NCBI RefSeq assembly: GCF_003991155.1
Contig: NZ_CP031293.1
Strand: one strand, 5' to 3'
From: Escherichia coli
GTDB lineage: Bacteria > Pseudomonadota > Gammaproteobacteria > Enterobacterales > Enterobacteriaceae
DNA: 64,000 bases
Position 1 is the first letter of the stretch. Every line of letters starts with the position of its first letter. Made by a program: the position numbers. Below, piece by piece: positions 42,001-48,000 of this stretch.

Positions 42001-45000
42001 TCTCCCGGAGAAGACGCGGCCTGATGGATGAAATGAAGACGTTTATTGCCTGAGAATTCCCTCACTGGCGAGGTACGAATTTAGCTGTTTTCCGGCGTCA
42101 GACTCAAAATTCCAGCACCGCCAGCGTAGTTGCCCTTCGGCATTGCGGATAACCAGCAGGAAATGCGTTCCATGGTCATCTTCAATAAGCACATTGCGGT
42201 AAGCTGTTGTGGCAGCCATTGCCTGTTTGCGTGAGAAAGGGCCTTCGGGCAATAAAACAGGGTGACAGTCCGACATACCGGCTATTTTCCGATAAATTCA
42301 ACGCTGGCACTGGTGGCATTACCGTCAGCACCAACCGTGACGGTCACTTTGTCGTACGCACGGTCTTCAGGATTGAATACTTCAAACTCAACCTTATTGC
42401 CTTTTACTTCGTAAGAGCCAAAATCAGCGGTTTCTGTTGTTTCCTCGTCATATTCCCGGGCGTATGCCTGCCGGGCAGCCTGCAGGACGGAGTCTTTATT
42501 AATAGTGGTCGTCTGTTTCGGGGAAAAACCGGCAAGTGATGTGACAAATTTCGGACAGACCTTCAGCATATCACCGCGGGTGAATTCCATTCGTACACCA
42601 AATGCCTGTAAAACGGACACATCACGCTCTGCTATGGAGTGAACGGCTTTTTTGACCATTTCCGGCGCCTGTCCGATTTCCACCTCAACAGCCCTGAATC
42701 CCGTCTGCTGATTACACATTTGTGATGTGGGGATCAGGTTACCGTTAATACTGATACGGCTGCCCAGGAGCGTCTGTACGCCATTCGGGCATCCCTGCAT
42801 CAGGCCGGTAATACCAATCGTGCCATTTTTCAGCATTACCAGCGCCTGACCATCTTCCGTCATGGTCTGACACCAGCCGTTTTTGACAGCCCAGTTGCCG
42901 GCGGAGGCGGAGAATGATGCCACAGTGAACAGCAGGGGAAAAAGAGCTCTGGTATTCATGACTGACCTCTGAAATGAACGTACGGTGTTATTGATAATGA
43001 TGGAAGGTATGCAGTGACTGTTCAGGGAATGACGTAGCCGTATATTTAGTTTTCTGTTCAACATATTGTCTCCATACCTGTCGGGACGGCTTTGGCAGGC
43101 CGGCGATCACAGGTTAAAGGTGTTGATAAGTTTATGGATGAAAGAGAAATGTGGCAGGGCGGAGATAAAACGCTCTTCAGCGACCAGACTGTGGATGTGG
43201 CCTCTCCGTTCAAACCGTTCTGATGTCAGGCTGACTGATTTGATATCTGCCAGAGGAAAGACCTGCAGTTTTCCCTTCTGTAACGCGATCAGATACCAGC
43301 TACCGCTGTAATAAATGAGCCGGCAGGGCTCCAGTGACGGATACCATCGCTCAGTCATCAGAGAGATGTGGATACACTGTCTTATTGCCAGGATGAGTTG
43401 CGAGAAACACTCGGGGAACGTTGCAGTGATATTCGGCGCCGGTAGCCAGATAAGGCAGGGAGAGGGCTCCTGGTTGTCGGTAAGACAGGTTATCAGTCGT
43501 CCGTTCCGGAGCGGAAGTATCCGTGCGATCCCGGTATTCTGTATAAAAGAAAGCATTTCAGGGATCGCACCTGGGCTGCTCTGTCGTCTGAGGCTGTACC
43601 TGCCATTTCTGTACTCTAAATCCAGGTGAACCAGACGCTGATGAAAATCGCGCTGTAAAGTACGTTCTGTAACGCCAAATTCATCTGACAGTGTTTTTAG
43701 TGACAGAGATTCTCCGGCCATCAGTCGGCTGATAATGAGTGATAAGCGAACCGCCAGGCGATCATGCCGGGAACGATTATCAGACATAGATGTGCACTCC
43801 GTAAGAAAACATCTTTTATTTCATGATGTTATTATGCCTCATGGTGTTGAAAGGATGTGTCGTATCTGAATAATCAGGAATAAAATGCAGCAGAAAAAAT
43901 ATTCCTTTAATTATCTGATTTTTAATGATGATTTCATAAAAAGAAGAATACTCATTAATCCAGCGACACATCCTGTCGGCGTGAGTGTGTCAGAACAGAC
44001 GATCCCACAGTGTTTCCAGCAGGCGGATAATGCGGTCCCGGGCTTTACGCAGAAGCTGTAACATCCAGACCGGAAAAGTGAACCGGGCAACGGCGTCGTC
44101 AAAACTTTTCCCGATGGCGTCACCAAAAGTCTGTTGTGCGTGTTTCTGGGCCTGTTCAGAGCGGTTTTCCCCCCGGATATGTGAATAAACCGCACTGGTT
44201 GCCTGCGGTGGCAGGGCGTGGATCATCAGCGACACAAACGCCGGAAGATTCCAGCCGACAGGCGCAGCAACGGGGAGTACCGGAAATGATGACGGGAACA
44301 GGGTTGCCACCCTGGCTGTAACAGTTGCCAGTGAGAGTTCCTGGTGACGGGATGGGCATTTTTCTGTGGCATTCCATTCTTCAGCAGGAAACACGCGATC
44401 GGCATGGCTGAGAACAAACAGAAAACGCGAGGGATCTGCACCTTCATTCAGTAAAAACTGATGCATGGCAATATCGGCAGCATACGCACGTTCATCAGCC
44501 CGCAGGATCCAGATAATCAGATCCAGTTCCGGCAGTAACTGACGGTAAAGCTCCCGGTATTCCTGATCATGCTGCGGTGTCTCACCAATGCCGGGCAGAT
44601 CGACCAGCGTCATTCTGCGTTCACCAATCTGCAGGGTGAGGCGATGAGCCTGGCGGGTGCAGCCGTTCAGGGGATGCGTGGCGCAGATACGGGACTGAAA
44701 AATGGCATTACACAGACTGCTTTTGCCGGAGCCGGATTTACCCATAATGCCAATCACGGGCTCGTAATGAATAACACCGTGGAGATGTTCAAGGATTTTC
44801 TGGCGAATTTCTTCAGGAAGAAACGTCAGATATGATTTCACTTGCGCGGAGAGGGAAGAATTGCTGAATGGCATACCGGTATCCTGTTGATTTCACTGAA
44901 CCGGATCACACTAATCCGGTTTATCATTCAGGTAATATGGGTGTGAAAATTTTTCCATTGACGGGAAGAAGAGTATGGCTAAAAACAAAGGTATCTGTCG

Positions 45001-48000
45001 GAATAAAAAATGCAGTAATCCTGTTTCAGAATTTGATGAGGCAAATGCCTTAAGGTTATGCGATGATCATTATAAGCTATGGAAGCGAAATAAAGAGAAT
45101 CGTCGGGTCAGGAATATTTGTCGTATAATTAGTAGATATGACAAAAGTCTGGACTGGGAGATATTTTATAGAGTAAGAGATGCTGCAAAAAATAAAACGG
45201 GAAAGAGAATTATTGAGGACGCAAAAATATTACATCAATGGCGTGCTTCAAAGCAAGTAAGAAAAAGTTTTCACAAGGGTGTGCTTCGGTCACGGGAATG
45301 GCTTAATACACAGGAGTTACTGAGCAGAAAACATATATCTGTTACAGGTGAACTATTTAAATTTTACATAAAAGATATTATCAGATTATATTGCTATAAG
45401 TTTCTCTACAGCAGAGAATATCTTAATGAAAACGCATACAAAAAACGATATCAGAGAGATATTCACCCCAGAAAAGTTAATGTTCCGATACTGCAACTTG
45501 AAGTTGCATGGATAAATAATAATTGCCGCTCAAGTGATTCAAGCACTGATATTATTATCCTTCCGAGGATGATAAGAAGAATGGTTGTATTTAATTATAC
45601 GAAGATAAATAAACAATTAGAGAAAGTGTTGGGGGGGATAGCACGAAAACAAACCTCAGAAAGGAATAAAGGCGGTCTCTATACCAGAATAAAAAAAGAA
45701 AGTGACTTTCTTTCTATGGATAGATTTATGGTGGAAATAGAAAATATCATAAGACCTGAAAGGTTTCCTACATCAATTTATCCAGTCTTTTCACATTCAT
45801 TTATTGAACGAGAGCTTCCGCTACTGAATCTTGCCCGATCACAGTATAAAAGAGCAATAAGTAAAAGAGTGGCGAATTCAATTTTTTATACTTTGCAAAA
45901 AACTAACGTGGCATTATGGCTATATCTTGAAATGTTTGCTCTGGTGGCATTCATTAAACTGTATACAGGAAAAGGTTTTGAATTCATAAAGAACATGTGT
46001 GTATTTATCGATTATGAGAAAGGGATAATAAAATCCACACATGAAGAACTGCTGGGTGAAATTAAGCGTAACATTCAAGTGAATTTGAAGGTGAATCCTG
46101 ATAATTTTCCAGAGTTAATAGACATATACAATTCATGCTTTAGTGAAAATATATTGTCATATGATATTCAGGATGGTAATTTTAAATGGCGCTCATGATG
46201 TAAAAATATTAATTTCACATTACATATTAATTATTCACAAAAAACATATAATTAATTTCAATGAGTTACATATAAAAATGTTGATGATTAGCCAGCTTAG
46301 TATGGTTATGCAATGTGATGCTTAACGCTTACAGATAATAACACATTCATATGAGCTATATATCATAATATTCAATAATCATGATATGCTAATCTGATTA
46401 TGGATAAAAATTACTGAATGACGCCATATTATGATTGGCAGTGTTTCCTGTATACGATGACTTATCTCTCCCGCATCATATGGGGGCACGTTTCTTAGGA
46501 AAAGTGACGGGGTTACAGAAGCCAATTACGATAGTTTGTTGTAGAGTTATCACGAGTTTTTGTTGTTCTGAAGACGGAATCAAAAAAATAATTCCAGAGT
46601 AAACCTGTCTGTTTTTTGACCAGTAAAGATCCATGCTGGCCGTGAAAAACTGAAATCAACACTCAGTCTGCATGGATGTCTGAAGATATTGAGAATGTCG
46701 GGAATGGTACTATATACGTATTATACAGACATATCTTCACTAAGTGTTATACACGCATTTTCATAAACAATTCTACAAGTGTTTTCATTAAGCATTGCTG
46801 TACACATTGTTTGATCTGATACACATCCAGTTTAGTAAATCTTTACGTTAGCTAAAATCAGTTTAAAGCTGCTACAAAACAATTTTTCTTGTTTAAGTAA
46901 TCAGGATGATATTCTATTTTTCTGAAGTTACGTTTAACCTTTTCTTAGTTTTTGTGTTTTTAGTCGTTAACCTGAGACAAGTGTCTTTATGTAAAAACGC
47001 AAATCCGGCTGAGATAACCTGGCGTGATTTACTGTGTGCTTACGATGATTTTGTTAAATGGTTTTATGGATGATTTTGTAACGATGAGATTGATGAGATG
47101 ATTAACTGGCCCTGGTGTTTTTTCTCAGCGCAAGACTCTTTTCAGGAAAAGCGTGATGATTGGTTCTGGTGTTTTGATTCAGATGAGGTTTACGTTATCG
47201 ATGGTTAACCGTTTTTATGGAGCGTAGTTAAAAGTAACGTTTTCAGTATAAGAAAATCGATTCTGATGTTGGTGGTTTTTGTTCTTGGGGCGGGGGTGTC
47301 TGTAAACAGGTTTTAATCGCGCTGTTCGGCTCTGTGATTGAGTTGTGTGGTTAAGCTGTAGGTGTGGTGTGATCTTACACAGCAATAGTGGACACGCGGC
47401 TAAGTGAGTAAACTCTCAGTCAGAGGTGACTCACATGACAAAAACAGTATCAACCAGTAAAAAACCCCGTAAACAGCATTCGCCTGAATTTCGCAGTGAA
47501 GCCCTGAAGCTTGCTGAACGCATCGGTGTTACTGCCGCAGCCCGTGAACTCAGCCTGTATGAATCACAGCTCTACAACTGGCGCAGTAAACAGCAAAATC
47601 AGCAGACGTCTTCTGAACGTGAACTGGAGATGTCTACCGAGATTGCACGTCTCAAACGCCAGCTGGCAGAACGGGATGAAGAGCTGGCTATCCTCCAAAA
47701 GGCCGCGACATACTTCGCGAAGCGCCTGAAATGAAGTATGTCTTTATTGAAAAACATCAGGCTGAGTTCAGCATCAAAGCAATGTGCCGCGTGCTCCGGG
47801 TGGCCCGCAGCGGCTGGTATACGTGGTGTCAGCGGCGGACAAGGATAAGCACGCGTCAGCAGTTCCGCCAACACTGCGACAGCGTTGTCCTCGCGGCTTT
47901 TACCCGGTCAAAACAGCGTTACGGTGCCCCACGCCTGACGGATGAACTGCGTGCTCAGGGTTACCCCTTTAACGTAAAAACCGTGGCGGCAAGCCTGCGC

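What the first reader, a model, noticed from the sequence alone, without database searches (positions are those of the whole stretch)
44975..46198. Orphan AT-rich cargo gene encoding a basic protein with an N-terminal Cys/His cluster: candidate defence or addiction gene
A 407-aa ORF of very low GC is transcribed divergently from the island GTPase, between the island backbone and an IS3. It has a putative zinc-ribbon-like N-terminus (C-x4-C ... C-x2-H) and a Lys/Arg-rich body; I recognise no family. Variable cargo positions in such islands commonly hold anti-phage or abortive-infection genes, and about 1.2 kb of ORF-free AT-rich DNA follows.
Basis: inference. Interest (0 to 1): 0.6.

Follow-up and report, generated by a model that had tools for sequence, protein, structure and literature searches.

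The report
Uncharacterised zinc-knuckle island slot gene
The 407-codon gene is real and kept intact in about a fifth of E. coli genomes. It belongs to a small, fast-diverging protein family with no recognisable fold that sits next to the GTPase of one family of genomic islands; its function is unknown, and nothing tested here shows it to be a defence or addiction gene.

Summary
**Observation: confirmed.** ORF 44975-46198 (+) encodes a 407-aa basic protein (pI 9.8, 34% GC). It starts 100 bp from the divergent island GTPase and is followed by 1,171 bp without conserved ORFs, then an IS3.

**It is a real gene.**
- It is full length in 967 of 5,426 complete E. coli genomes.
- dN/dS is about 0.27.
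- Homologues at 21-37% identity occur in Klebsiella, Citrobacter and other Enterobacterales.
- The C-x4-C...C-x2-H cluster is invariant.

**It is not an orphan or random cargo.** In six distant loci it keeps the same position: WYL regulator <- GTPase <-|-> X -> AlpA -> HUH Rep.

**The slot is nevertheless allelic.** E. coli islands whose GTPase is about 95% identical carry X alleles only 21-25% identical, or an unrelated second family. These are swapped as one monocistronic unit behind a conserved promoter.

**No database or fold search recognises it.**
- No match in Pfam, NCBIfam, PADLOC or PDB sequences, and only a non-significant PHROG hit (E 0.08).
- It is absent from the phage, plasmid and IMG/VR collections searched.
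- No conserved catalytic residues, no toxin-antitoxin partner and no positive selection were found.

**Best guess (about 0.35).** A non-enzymatic, zinc-knuckle nucleic-acid-binding regulator or sensor of the island's GTPase module. A defence role remains possible (about 0.2) but has no support here.

The parts
44975..46198 (+). Gene X: 407-aa basic protein, identical to RefSeq WP_001107219.1 'hypothetical protein'. It belongs to an uncharacterised Enterobacterales superfamily.
   Evidence: ORF. RefSeq annotation. Present in 975 of 5,426 E. coli genomes. dN/dS 0.27. Homologues. AF2 model pLDDT 78.8. No fold match.
44996..45073 (+). N-terminal zinc knuckle, residues 8-33: C8-x4-C13-x15-C29-x2-H32, with the motif RLCxxHY.
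   Evidence: The four ligands are invariant in 16 of 16 N-termini. This is the most constrained segment, with pN/pS 0.04. No Pfam or PDB sequence family matches it.
44899..44921 (.). Perfect 8-bp inverted repeat AACCGGAT-N7-ATCCGGTT in the GTPase/X divergent promoter region. It belongs to the backbone, not to the allele cassette.
   Evidence: Coordinates. It is nearly identical in the E. coli X allele types examined (407, 376 and 316 aa). An inverted repeat with different arms sits at the same place in 5 of the 6 loci from outside E. coli that were examined.
44931..44940 (.). Conserved GGTAATATGG box, which reads as a -10-like hexamer on both strands. It is the presumed promoter core for X and possibly for the GTPase operon.
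   Evidence: Conserved in all 14 intergenic regions compared. The consensus promoter scan did not flag it, so its promoter function is inferred.
44950..46585 (+). The exchangeable allele cassette: 5'UTR with an SD-like GAAGAAGAG at about 44965-44973, the ORF, and a 3' region of about 380 bp.
   Evidence: Left breakpoint just after GTGAAAA. Right breakpoint at gap position 370-387. Flanking GTPase 95% and YagK 88-92% identical, while the slot protein is 21-25% identical.
46468..46496 (+). Terminator-like hairpin plus T-rich tail inside the allele-specific 3' region.
   Evidence: This was the only hit, and one hit is what the shuffled control also gives, so it is weak evidence.
46586..47369 (.). 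Backbone non-coding AT-rich DNA upstream of the HUH/YagK gene. It continues at 48631-48911 beyond the IS3.
   Evidence: Shared at 70-89% identity by islands with different slot alleles; conservation is patchy with many indels. No Rfam match. No iterons or tandem repeats.
47370..48627 (+). IS3 insertion (1,258 bp) with a 3-bp GTG target duplication. It is absent from otherwise identical islands.
   Evidence: the uninterrupted sequence is in L002 (D8).
43990..44874 (-). Island GTPase (YfjP/YeeP-type, MMR_HSR1). It is the conserved neighbour of X and the first gene of the leftward block of same-strand genes (WYL regulator, DUF932, antirestriction, RadC, CbeA/CbtA).
   Evidence: Weak LeoBC similarity in PADLOC, E 2e-7.
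48912..49643 (+). Inovirus Gp2 / YagK-YfjJ (REP_ORF2-G2P, HUH-type) gene, the next backbone gene to the right.

Best explanation
**Shown**
- X is a genuine, selectively maintained protein-coding gene of a CP4-57/CP4-44-like integrative island.
- Its architecture is an invariant N-terminal Cys3His zinc knuckle, a Lys/Arg-rich low-confidence linker, and a helical body of about 300 aa with no detectable relative of known fold or function.
- It occupies a fixed slot beside the island's YfjP-type GTPase and near AlpA and the HUH Rep gene.
- In E. coli this slot is exchanged as a single monocistronic unit behind a conserved backbone promoter. The alternatives are very divergent X alleles (407, 376, or 316 aa without the zinc knuckle) and an unrelated second family.

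**Inferred**
- X is not an enzyme. Across the superfamily only Y139, P197, Y236, P282 and L286 are invariant.
- I propose that it binds nucleic acid through the zinc knuckle and basic linker.
- I propose that the helical body is a specificity, sensor or protein-interaction module.
- On this reading X works as a regulator or sensor in the island's own control circuit, at the junction of the excision/replication module and the GTPase-WYL module. That is analogous in logic to the divergent Stl master repressors of SaPIs. It would not be a stand-alone effector.
For: **Real gene**
- Intact in 967 E. coli genomes.
- dN/dS 0.26-0.27, similar to the GTPase at 0.14-0.22.
- The zinc knuckle has pN/pS 0.04.

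**Fixed position across genera**
- Homologues at 26-37% identity sit in the order GTPase <-|-> X -> AlpA -> YagK in Klebsiella, Citrobacter and Logan contigs. Locus L011 keeps the order but has no alpA directly after X.
- A 21%-identical subfamily has the order int - 141 aa - AlpA-like - X -> GTPase -> WYL, all on one strand.
- In the species-representative genome scan (one genome per bacterial species), X occurs only beside GTPases at least 52% identical to this one.

**Allelic cassette behind a shared promoter**
- 2,507 E. coli places carry the GTPase 5' end plus promoter.
- X alleles account for 1,068 + 516 + 813 places.

**No catalytic constellation**

**A possible case of analogous replacement.** An unrelated family of similar size takes the same position immediately upstream of the GTPase in 21 of 80 Enterobacterales loci. 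One of its members has a weak RepB/RHH-like C-terminus. In E. coli this family accompanies the X allele that lacks the zinc knuckle.

**Basic charge.** pI is 9.8 overall and 10.7 in the linker.
Against: - DNA or RNA binding has not been demonstrated, and the zinc knuckle matches no characterised DNA-binding family.
- The inverted repeat in the promoter does not change with the X allele in E. coli. It is therefore unlikely to be an allele-specific X operator and may belong to the WYL regulator.
- At 407 aa the protein is large for a simple repressor.
- The RHH hint in the alternative family is a single weak hit, 1 of 9 members at E 0.005.
- Swapping of very divergent alleles at a hotspot is also what conflict genes (defence or anti-defence) look like.
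Confidence: 0.35

Rival explanations
1. Single-gene anti-phage defence or abortive-infection protein. The zinc knuckle or helical body would sense a phage component, and divergent alleles would give different specificities.
For: - The island class is known to carry defence cargo (Bell et al. 2025 preprint, PMC12458937, section 11).
- The gene is AT-rich, and very divergent alleles are exchanged between near-identical backbones.
- The neighbouring block includes a WYL regulator, and the GTPase has weak LeoBC similarity.
- The family has a narrow, patchy distribution.
Against: - No PADLOC match for any allele, even at E 1.
- No effector-type domain, no transmembrane segment (highest 19-residue Kyte-Doolittle hydropathy 1.78) and no conserved catalytic residues.
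- The position is conserved next to the GTPase and AlpA across genera, while recognisable defence systems sit elsewhere in the same islands.
- No segment has pN/pS above 1.
Confidence: 0.2
2. Anti-defence or establishment factor. It would be expressed early after the island enters a new cell, like the neighbouring antirestriction/ArdB-KlcA and RadC genes, and would neutralise a host nuclease or nucleic-acid sensor.
For: - X shares a divergent promoter region with the block of genes that contains the antirestriction and RadC/JAB genes.
- It diverges rapidly and is swapped as alleles.
- It looks non-enzymatic and binding-type.
Against: - From my own knowledge, known anti-restriction proteins are small and acidic (DNA mimics). 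X is large and strongly basic.
- No homologue in plasmid or phage collections, where anti-defence genes abound.
Confidence: 0.1
3. Accessory DNA-binding factor for island replication, excision or mobilisation. It would be an origin-binding or att-binding partner of the HUH (YagK/YfjJ) nickase or of AlpA/Int.
For: - X is adjacent to alpA and the HUH gene in most loci, in either order.
- In E. coli and in L011 it is followed by a long AT-rich non-coding stretch.
Against: - No iterons or tandem repeats downstream.
- No NTPase, primase or HUH motifs.
- The YagK gene stays about 90% identical while X alleles differ five-fold in identity. That argues against tight co-specificity.
Confidence: 0.1
4. 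Degenerate HNH-type (homing-endonuclease-like) selfish cassette, a reading suggested by the 'HNH endonuclease' label on some relatives.
For: - The zinc knuckle resembles the C-terminal half of a zinc-stabilised HNH motif (RLCxxH).
- Some AFDB relatives are named 'HNH endonuclease'.
- The cassette-like replacement occurs at one site.
Against: - No HNH Pfam hit in any of 14+16 sequences scanned.
- No conserved general-base His or Asn.
- None of the E. coli islands inspected had an empty slot. One slot held only the unrelated second family. The place counts roughly balance, 2,397 against 2,507.
- Purifying selection acts over the whole length.
Confidence: 0.05

Closest known systems
Stl-type master repressors of SaPI/PICI phage-inducible islands
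   Same: - Encoded by the island at a divergent promoter next to the excision/replication genes.
- Extremely divergent between otherwise related islands.
- Built as an N-terminal DNA-binding element plus a larger variable domain.

This is an analogy of logic, recalled from my own knowledge, not a tested homology.
   Different: - Stl uses a helix-turn-helix; X has a Cys3His zinc knuckle.
- No sequence or fold similarity.
- The promoter inverted repeat does not co-vary with the X allele.
- No helper-phage link is known.
HNH / His-Me finger endonucleases (the label some databases give to relatives)
   Same: A short zinc-bound knuckle with an 'RLCxxH' signature, resembling the metal-binding half of zinc-stabilised HNH motifs.
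   Different: - No profile match.
- No catalytic His or Asn conserved.
- The rest of the protein is a helical body unlike any known nuclease.
Single-gene defence proteins found in mobile-element hotspots (PADLOC-DB families such as the PD-T4, PD-Lambda and Abi types)
   Same: - AT-rich.
- Carried by a mobile element.
- Allelic variation at a fixed site.
- Narrow taxonomic range.
   Different: - No match to any of 5,027 PADLOC models.
- No effector domain.
- Syntenic with backbone genes across genera.
The second uncharacterised family next to island GTPases (alignment A6; motif W-x2-N-x-R-A-x-F-W-x-W)
   Same: - Same position beside the GTPase.
- Similar size.
- Also unannotated.
- In E. coli it occupies the same slot, alone or together with the X allele that lacks the zinc knuckle.
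   Different: - Not homologous to X (hhalign probability 0.1%).
- Has no zinc knuckle.
- One member has a weak RepB/RHH-like C-terminus.

Membership tests
HNH endonuclease | Match to an HNH / Endonuclease_7 / His-Me profile | tested here: not met
   No Pfam hit even at E<=10 for X. None in 14 family members. None in 16 isolated N-termini. No NCBIfam hit.
HNH endonuclease | Conserved general-base His and structural Asn of the beta-beta-alpha-metal motif | tested here: not met
   Only C8, C13, C29 and H32 are invariant in the N-terminus. N24 is replaced in distant members.
Reverse transcriptase (UniRef name of relative P0016) | RVT profile match and a YxDD-type motif | tested here: not met
   No RVT Pfam hit in P0016 or any other member. 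No PADLOC DRT or retron hit. No YxDD in the sequence.
Known or candidate anti-phage defence families (PADLOC-DB v2) | Profile match to a defence-system protein | tested here: not met
   0 families at E<=1 for X. 0 for the 376-aa and 316-aa alleles. The database dates from 2023, so newer systems are not covered.
Anti-phage defence (functional) | Protection against phage when expressed | not testable with these tools
   Needs phage-challenge assays.
Toxin-antitoxin / addiction module | Conserved adjacent partner gene | tested here: not met
   No annotated partner in the 407-type cassette. Small ORFs in the 3' region are broken by stops in diverged copies.
Toxin-antitoxin / addiction module | Toxicity of the protein | not testable with these tools
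   Needs expression experiments.
Winged-helix DNA-binding domain (my guess for residues 333-407) | Fold match to winged-helix structures | tested here: not met
Backbone gene of CP4-57/CP4-44-like integrative islands | Conserved position relative to other backbone genes across distant relatives | tested here: met
   X lies next to the GTPase in 10 non-E. coli loci. AlpA and YagK follow in most of these.
Backbone gene of CP4-57/CP4-44-like integrative islands | Present in every island of the type | tested here: not met
   One E. coli island has only the unrelated A6-family gene in the slot. Islands whose GTPase is about 40% identical lack X.
Zinc-binding domain | Four conserved metal ligands with fixed spacing | tested here: met
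   C-x4-C-x15-C-x2-H is invariant apart from a 2-residue shorter first spacer in one subgroup. Actual metal binding was not tested.

The most novel reading that the evidence does not exclude
X and its divergent alleles would be a previously unrecognised class of island-encoded specificity or sensor proteins with a new fold. Each allele would recognise a different invader or helper-phage cue through its helical body, and would then act through the adjacent YfjP-type GTPase/WYL module. On this reading X is either a new GTPase-linked defence system or the trigger that mobilises the island.
Probability: 0.2. Interest if true: 0.7.

Novelty: new variant of a known kind. Interest (0 to 1): 0.45.

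Why it matters
**How common it is.** These islands are very common. The GTPase-plus-promoter backbone is in 1,871 of 5,426 complete E. coli genomes, including UPEC and APEC strains such as UTI89, S88 and 042.

**What is unknown.** The gene at the centre of their divergent promoter is entirely dark. It has no domain, no fold match and no literature.

**What this work gives.**
- The gene is under purifying selection.
- It is tied in position to the GTPase.
- It is exchanged as a unit between highly divergent alleles, and with a second unrelated family.

Together these define an experimental target for understanding how this class of defence-carrying islands is controlled.

**If it proves to be a sensor or defence component,** the allele series (407 aa, 376 aa, 316 aa plus the A6-family partner, A6 family alone) would be a natural specificity panel.

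Tried and rejected
1. **Named families.** Pfam, NCBIfam, PADLOC and PDB sequence searches with the single sequence and with profiles gave nothing; PHROGs gave one non-significant hit, E 0.08.
3. **Database labels on relatives.** 'Reverse transcriptase' and 'HNH endonuclease' have no supporting profile or motif.
4. **Non-coding RNA in the ORF-free DNA.** No Rfam match.
5. **Origin of replication in the ORF-free DNA.** No iterons or tandem repeats.
6. **Decayed alpA in the ORF-free DNA.** No tblastn remnant. There is only a weak REP_ORF2-like hit at about 47059-47184, E 0.002.
7. **Promoter inverted repeat as an allele-specific X operator.** Rejected: the repeat is nearly identical in the E. coli X allele types examined.
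8. **Hidden small partner gene.** Rejected.
9. **Homologues on phages, plasmids or IMG/VR contigs.** None.
10. **Homology between X and the alternative slot family.** None.
11. **Positive selection.** No segment has pN/pS above 0.6.
12. **Literature.** Searches for the accession, the GTPase names and the island genes found no description of X.

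
Full report

Yes. The ORF 44975..46198 (+, ATG, 407 aa) is in the six-frame list.

- The region is AT-rich: GC is 0.34 and 0.32 in 45-47 kb, against 0.52 just upstream. GC3 is 0.29.
- The protein begins MAKNKGIC(8)RNKKC(13)SNPVSEFDEANALRLC(29)DDH(32)Y, so the C-x4-C...C-x2-H cluster is there.
- It has 77 Lys+Arg and a pI of 9.8.
- The GTPase gene (43990-44874) is on the other strand, 100 bp away.
- After the stop there are 1,171 bp with no ORF over 60 aa.
- An IS3 follows at 47370-47627... more exactly 47370-48627, 1,258 bp, with a GTG target duplication.
- The window matches E. coli 2016C-3878 at 100% over the 2.55-kb stretch compared. There the island lies beside setC/yicL/nlpA, and the ORF is WP_001107219.1, 'hypothetical protein'.

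**2. Is it a gene?**

Yes.

- The 1,224-nt ORF occurs in 975 of 5,426 complete E. coli genomes, and 967 carry at least 80% of it. Every listed row was full length and annotated as a protein, at 90.9-100% identity.
- Between copies 3-10% diverged, dN/dS is 0.26-0.27. The neighbouring GTPase gives 0.14-0.22.
- By segment, the zinc knuckle is the most constrained (pN/pS 0.04). No segment exceeds 0.6.
- Full-length homologues at 25-37% identity exist in Citrobacter, Klebsiella michiganensis and several assembled read sets.
- In the 14-sequence alignment, C8, C13, C29 and H32 are invariant, along with about 18 other positions.

**3. What does it resemble?**

Nothing that is named.

- Pfam, NCBIfam, PADLOC and PDB sequences give no hit for the protein or its profile. 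PHROGs gives one non-significant hit, E 0.08.
- An AlphaFold2 model built on the family alignment is reasonably confident (pLDDT 78.8, pTM 0.67). It shows the zinc knuckle, a long helix, a low-confidence basic linker (about residues 56-100) and a mainly helical body with two small beta hairpins.
- Foldseek against AFDB50 returns only family members from Enterobacterales: E. coli UTI89 Q1R2M8, plus Salmonella, Serratia, Providencia and Lelliottia proteins.
- Two relatives are labelled 'Reverse transcriptase' or 'HNH endonuclease'. No profile or motif supports either label.
- I guessed that residues 333-407 form a winged helix. A separate, better model of residues 268-407 (pLDDT 88) again matched only generic helical bundles, so that guess is rejected.
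- No homologue is found in 50,697 phage records, 72,556 plasmids or IMG/VR contigs.

**4. Context: not an orphan, not free cargo**

In the distant homologues the neighbourhood is the same: WYL/HTH regulator <- GTPase <- about 95 bp -> X -> AlpA -> YagK/YfjJ (REP_ORF2-G2P, HUH-type).

- This holds in Klebsiella (L004), Citrobacter (L006) and three other contigs (L008, L009, L013).
- L011 keeps the order but has a 1.6-kb gap in place of alpA directly after X.
- Recognisable defence cargo in these loci lies beyond YagK: type I R-M, a TIR protein, BrxR. A McrB-like gene sits at the far end of one locus.
- In the most distant subfamily (21-22% identity, with a second, YacG-like Cys cluster) the order is int - 141 aa - AlpA-like 74 aa - X -> GTPase -> WYL -> ... 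-> DUF932, all on one strand.
- X is therefore next to the GTPase in both orientations.
- A GTPase-centred scan of one genome per species returned 80 loci. X was found only beside GTPases at least 52% identical to the window's (L021-L025).
- This island class has been described in general terms: integrase, excisionase, HUH nuclease, cargo, and a RadC/ArdB/CbtA module at the far end (Bell et al. 2025 preprint, PMC12458937, section 11). That description does not mention X.

**5. The slot is nevertheless allelic in E. coli**

- Islands whose GTPase is 95% and whose YagK is 88-92% identical to the window's carry quite different genes in the slot: a 376-aa protein (WP_000147748.1) or a 316-aa protein (WP_000157733.1).
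- Both are distant members of the X superfamily (HMM E 1e-23 and 7e-9), at only 21-25% identity.
- The 376-aa type keeps the zinc knuckle. The 316/320-aa type lacks it and is always seen with a convergent 262-267-aa gene of an unrelated family.
- One island has only that second family in the slot.
- The sequences diverge just after the conserved GGTAATATGG...GTGAAAA box, at about 44950. They rejoin about 380 bp after the X stop codon, at about 46585. A terminator-like hairpin lies inside this stretch at 46468-46486. What is swapped is therefore one monocistronic unit, driven by a backbone promoter.
- Counts in complete E. coli genomes:

| Element | Places | Genomes |
|---|---|---|
| GTPase 5' end plus promoter | 2,507 | 1,871 |
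| X-407 | 1,068 | 975 |
| X-376 | 516 | 463 |
| X-316 | 813 | 742 |

- The totals are similar (2,397 against 2,507), but I did not match the places one by one.
- Strain 219 carries X-407 and X-376 in two different islands.

**6. What the superfamily alignment says**

- With 17 sequences spanning all types, only Y139, P197, Y236, P282 and L286 are invariant, and W109 is nearly so.
- R147, E176, R293 and E319, which are invariant among the closer relatives, are not kept.
- That is not the pattern of an enzyme active site.
- A further profile search brought in 77 proteins. All are 'hypothetical', and none has a Pfam domain or a fusion partner.

**7. The flanking non-coding DNA**

- The promoter region has a perfect 8-bp inverted repeat at 44899-44921, followed by the conserved -10-like box at 44931-44940.
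- An inverted repeat with different arm sequences sits at the same place in 5 of the 6 loci from outside E. coli that I examined.
- In E. coli the repeat is nearly identical in the X-407, X-376 and X-316 islands examined. It therefore goes with the backbone, perhaps with the WYL regulator, and not with X.
- Of the 1,171 ORF-free bases, the first 380 or so are specific to the 407 allele. The rest is shared at 70-89% identity by all slot types and continues beyond the IS3 to the YagK gene. Its conservation is patchy, with many indels.
- It has no Rfam match, no iterons, no tandem repeats and no alpA remnant.
- Its small ORFs are not conserved.

**8. Most likely mechanism**

The shown facts are:
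- a zinc knuckle under strong constraint;
- a basic linker;
- a non-enzymatic helical body;
- a fixed place at the junction of the int/alpA/HUH module and the GTPase-WYL module;
- expression from a conserved divergent promoter;
- exchange between deeply divergent alleles;
- replacement by an unrelated family of similar size. That family sits immediately upstream of the GTPase in 21 of 80 Enterobacterales loci, and one of its members has a weak RepB/RHH-like C-terminus (only 1 of 9 members).

From these I infer a nucleic-acid-binding regulator or sensor that acts in the island's own circuit, with a modular specificity domain. This is comparable in logic to SaPI Stl repressors. I put it at about 0.35.

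The defence reading is about 0.2. It fits the allele swapping and the island's lifestyle, but it has no positive evidence and lacks an effector domain. The other readings are anti-defence or establishment (0.1), replication or mobilisation accessory (0.1), and degenerate HNH cassette (0.05).

**9. Verdict**

- The gene is a new, uncharacterised family in a very common island type. It is interesting mainly as a well-defined experimental target, not as a demonstrated new system.

Noticed in passing
L015:3460-4248 (-), L103:5008-5811 (-), L104:4084-5103 (-), L026:3255-4325 (+) and 20 other GTDB loci: A second uncharacterised protein family (about 260-360 aa, motif W-x2-N-x-R-A-x-F-W-x-W). It lies immediately upstream of the island GTPase on the same strand in 21 of 80 Enterobacterales loci. 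In E. coli it shares the finding's slot, either alone or convergent to the X allele that lacks the zinc knuckle. It is not homologous to X. One member has a weak RepB-RCR_reg (RHH-like) C-terminal hit.
   Followed up: partly
window 44899-44940: A perfect 8-bp inverted repeat (AACCGGAT-N7-ATCCGGTT) sits 9 bp upstream of a GGTAATATGG box that is conserved in all 14 loci compared. In 5 of the 6 loci from outside E. coli an inverted repeat with different arm sequences sits at the same position. It may be an operator for the WYL/HTH regulator of the leftward genes.
   Followed up: partly
window 47370-48627: An IS3 copy (1,258 bp, GTG target duplication) is inserted in the conserved non-coding region upstream of the YagK/HUH gene. 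Otherwise identical islands lack it.
   Followed up: yes
window 46586-47369 and 48631-48911: About 1.07 kb of AT-rich backbone DNA without ORFs lies upstream of the HUH gene. Islands with different slot alleles share it at 70-89% identity. A weak tblastn hit to the N-terminus of a REP_ORF2-G2P protein at about 47059-47184 (E 0.002) may be a pseudogene trace.
   Followed up: partly
P0020 (L011:8001-9398); P0033, P0038, L024:2951-4204: Variations on the N-terminus. P0020 has two tandem copies of the zinc knuckle. The most distant subfamily adds a second Cys cluster (C-x2-C ... YCS-x2-C/H), which from memory resembles YacG/FCS-type fingers.
   Followed up: no
window 43990-44874 (-) and 43107-43787 (-): The island GTPase has a weak PADLOC match to LeoBC over its C-terminal third (E 2e-7). 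The next gene is a WYL-domain regulator (E 3e-18 to the PADLOC WYL model). The function of this GTPase-WYL pair is itself unknown.
   Followed up: no
NZ_CP020514.1 (L003 and hit H111): E. coli strain 219 carries two islands of this type, one with the 407-aa allele and one with the 376-aa allele. Some genomes hold up to four copies of the 407-aa allele.
   Followed up: no
AFDB A0AAX3CP38 / P0016; A0AAW5Z6I9: Public names for relatives ('Reverse transcriptase', 'HNH endonuclease') are not supported by any profile or motif and look like annotation errors.
   Followed up: yes
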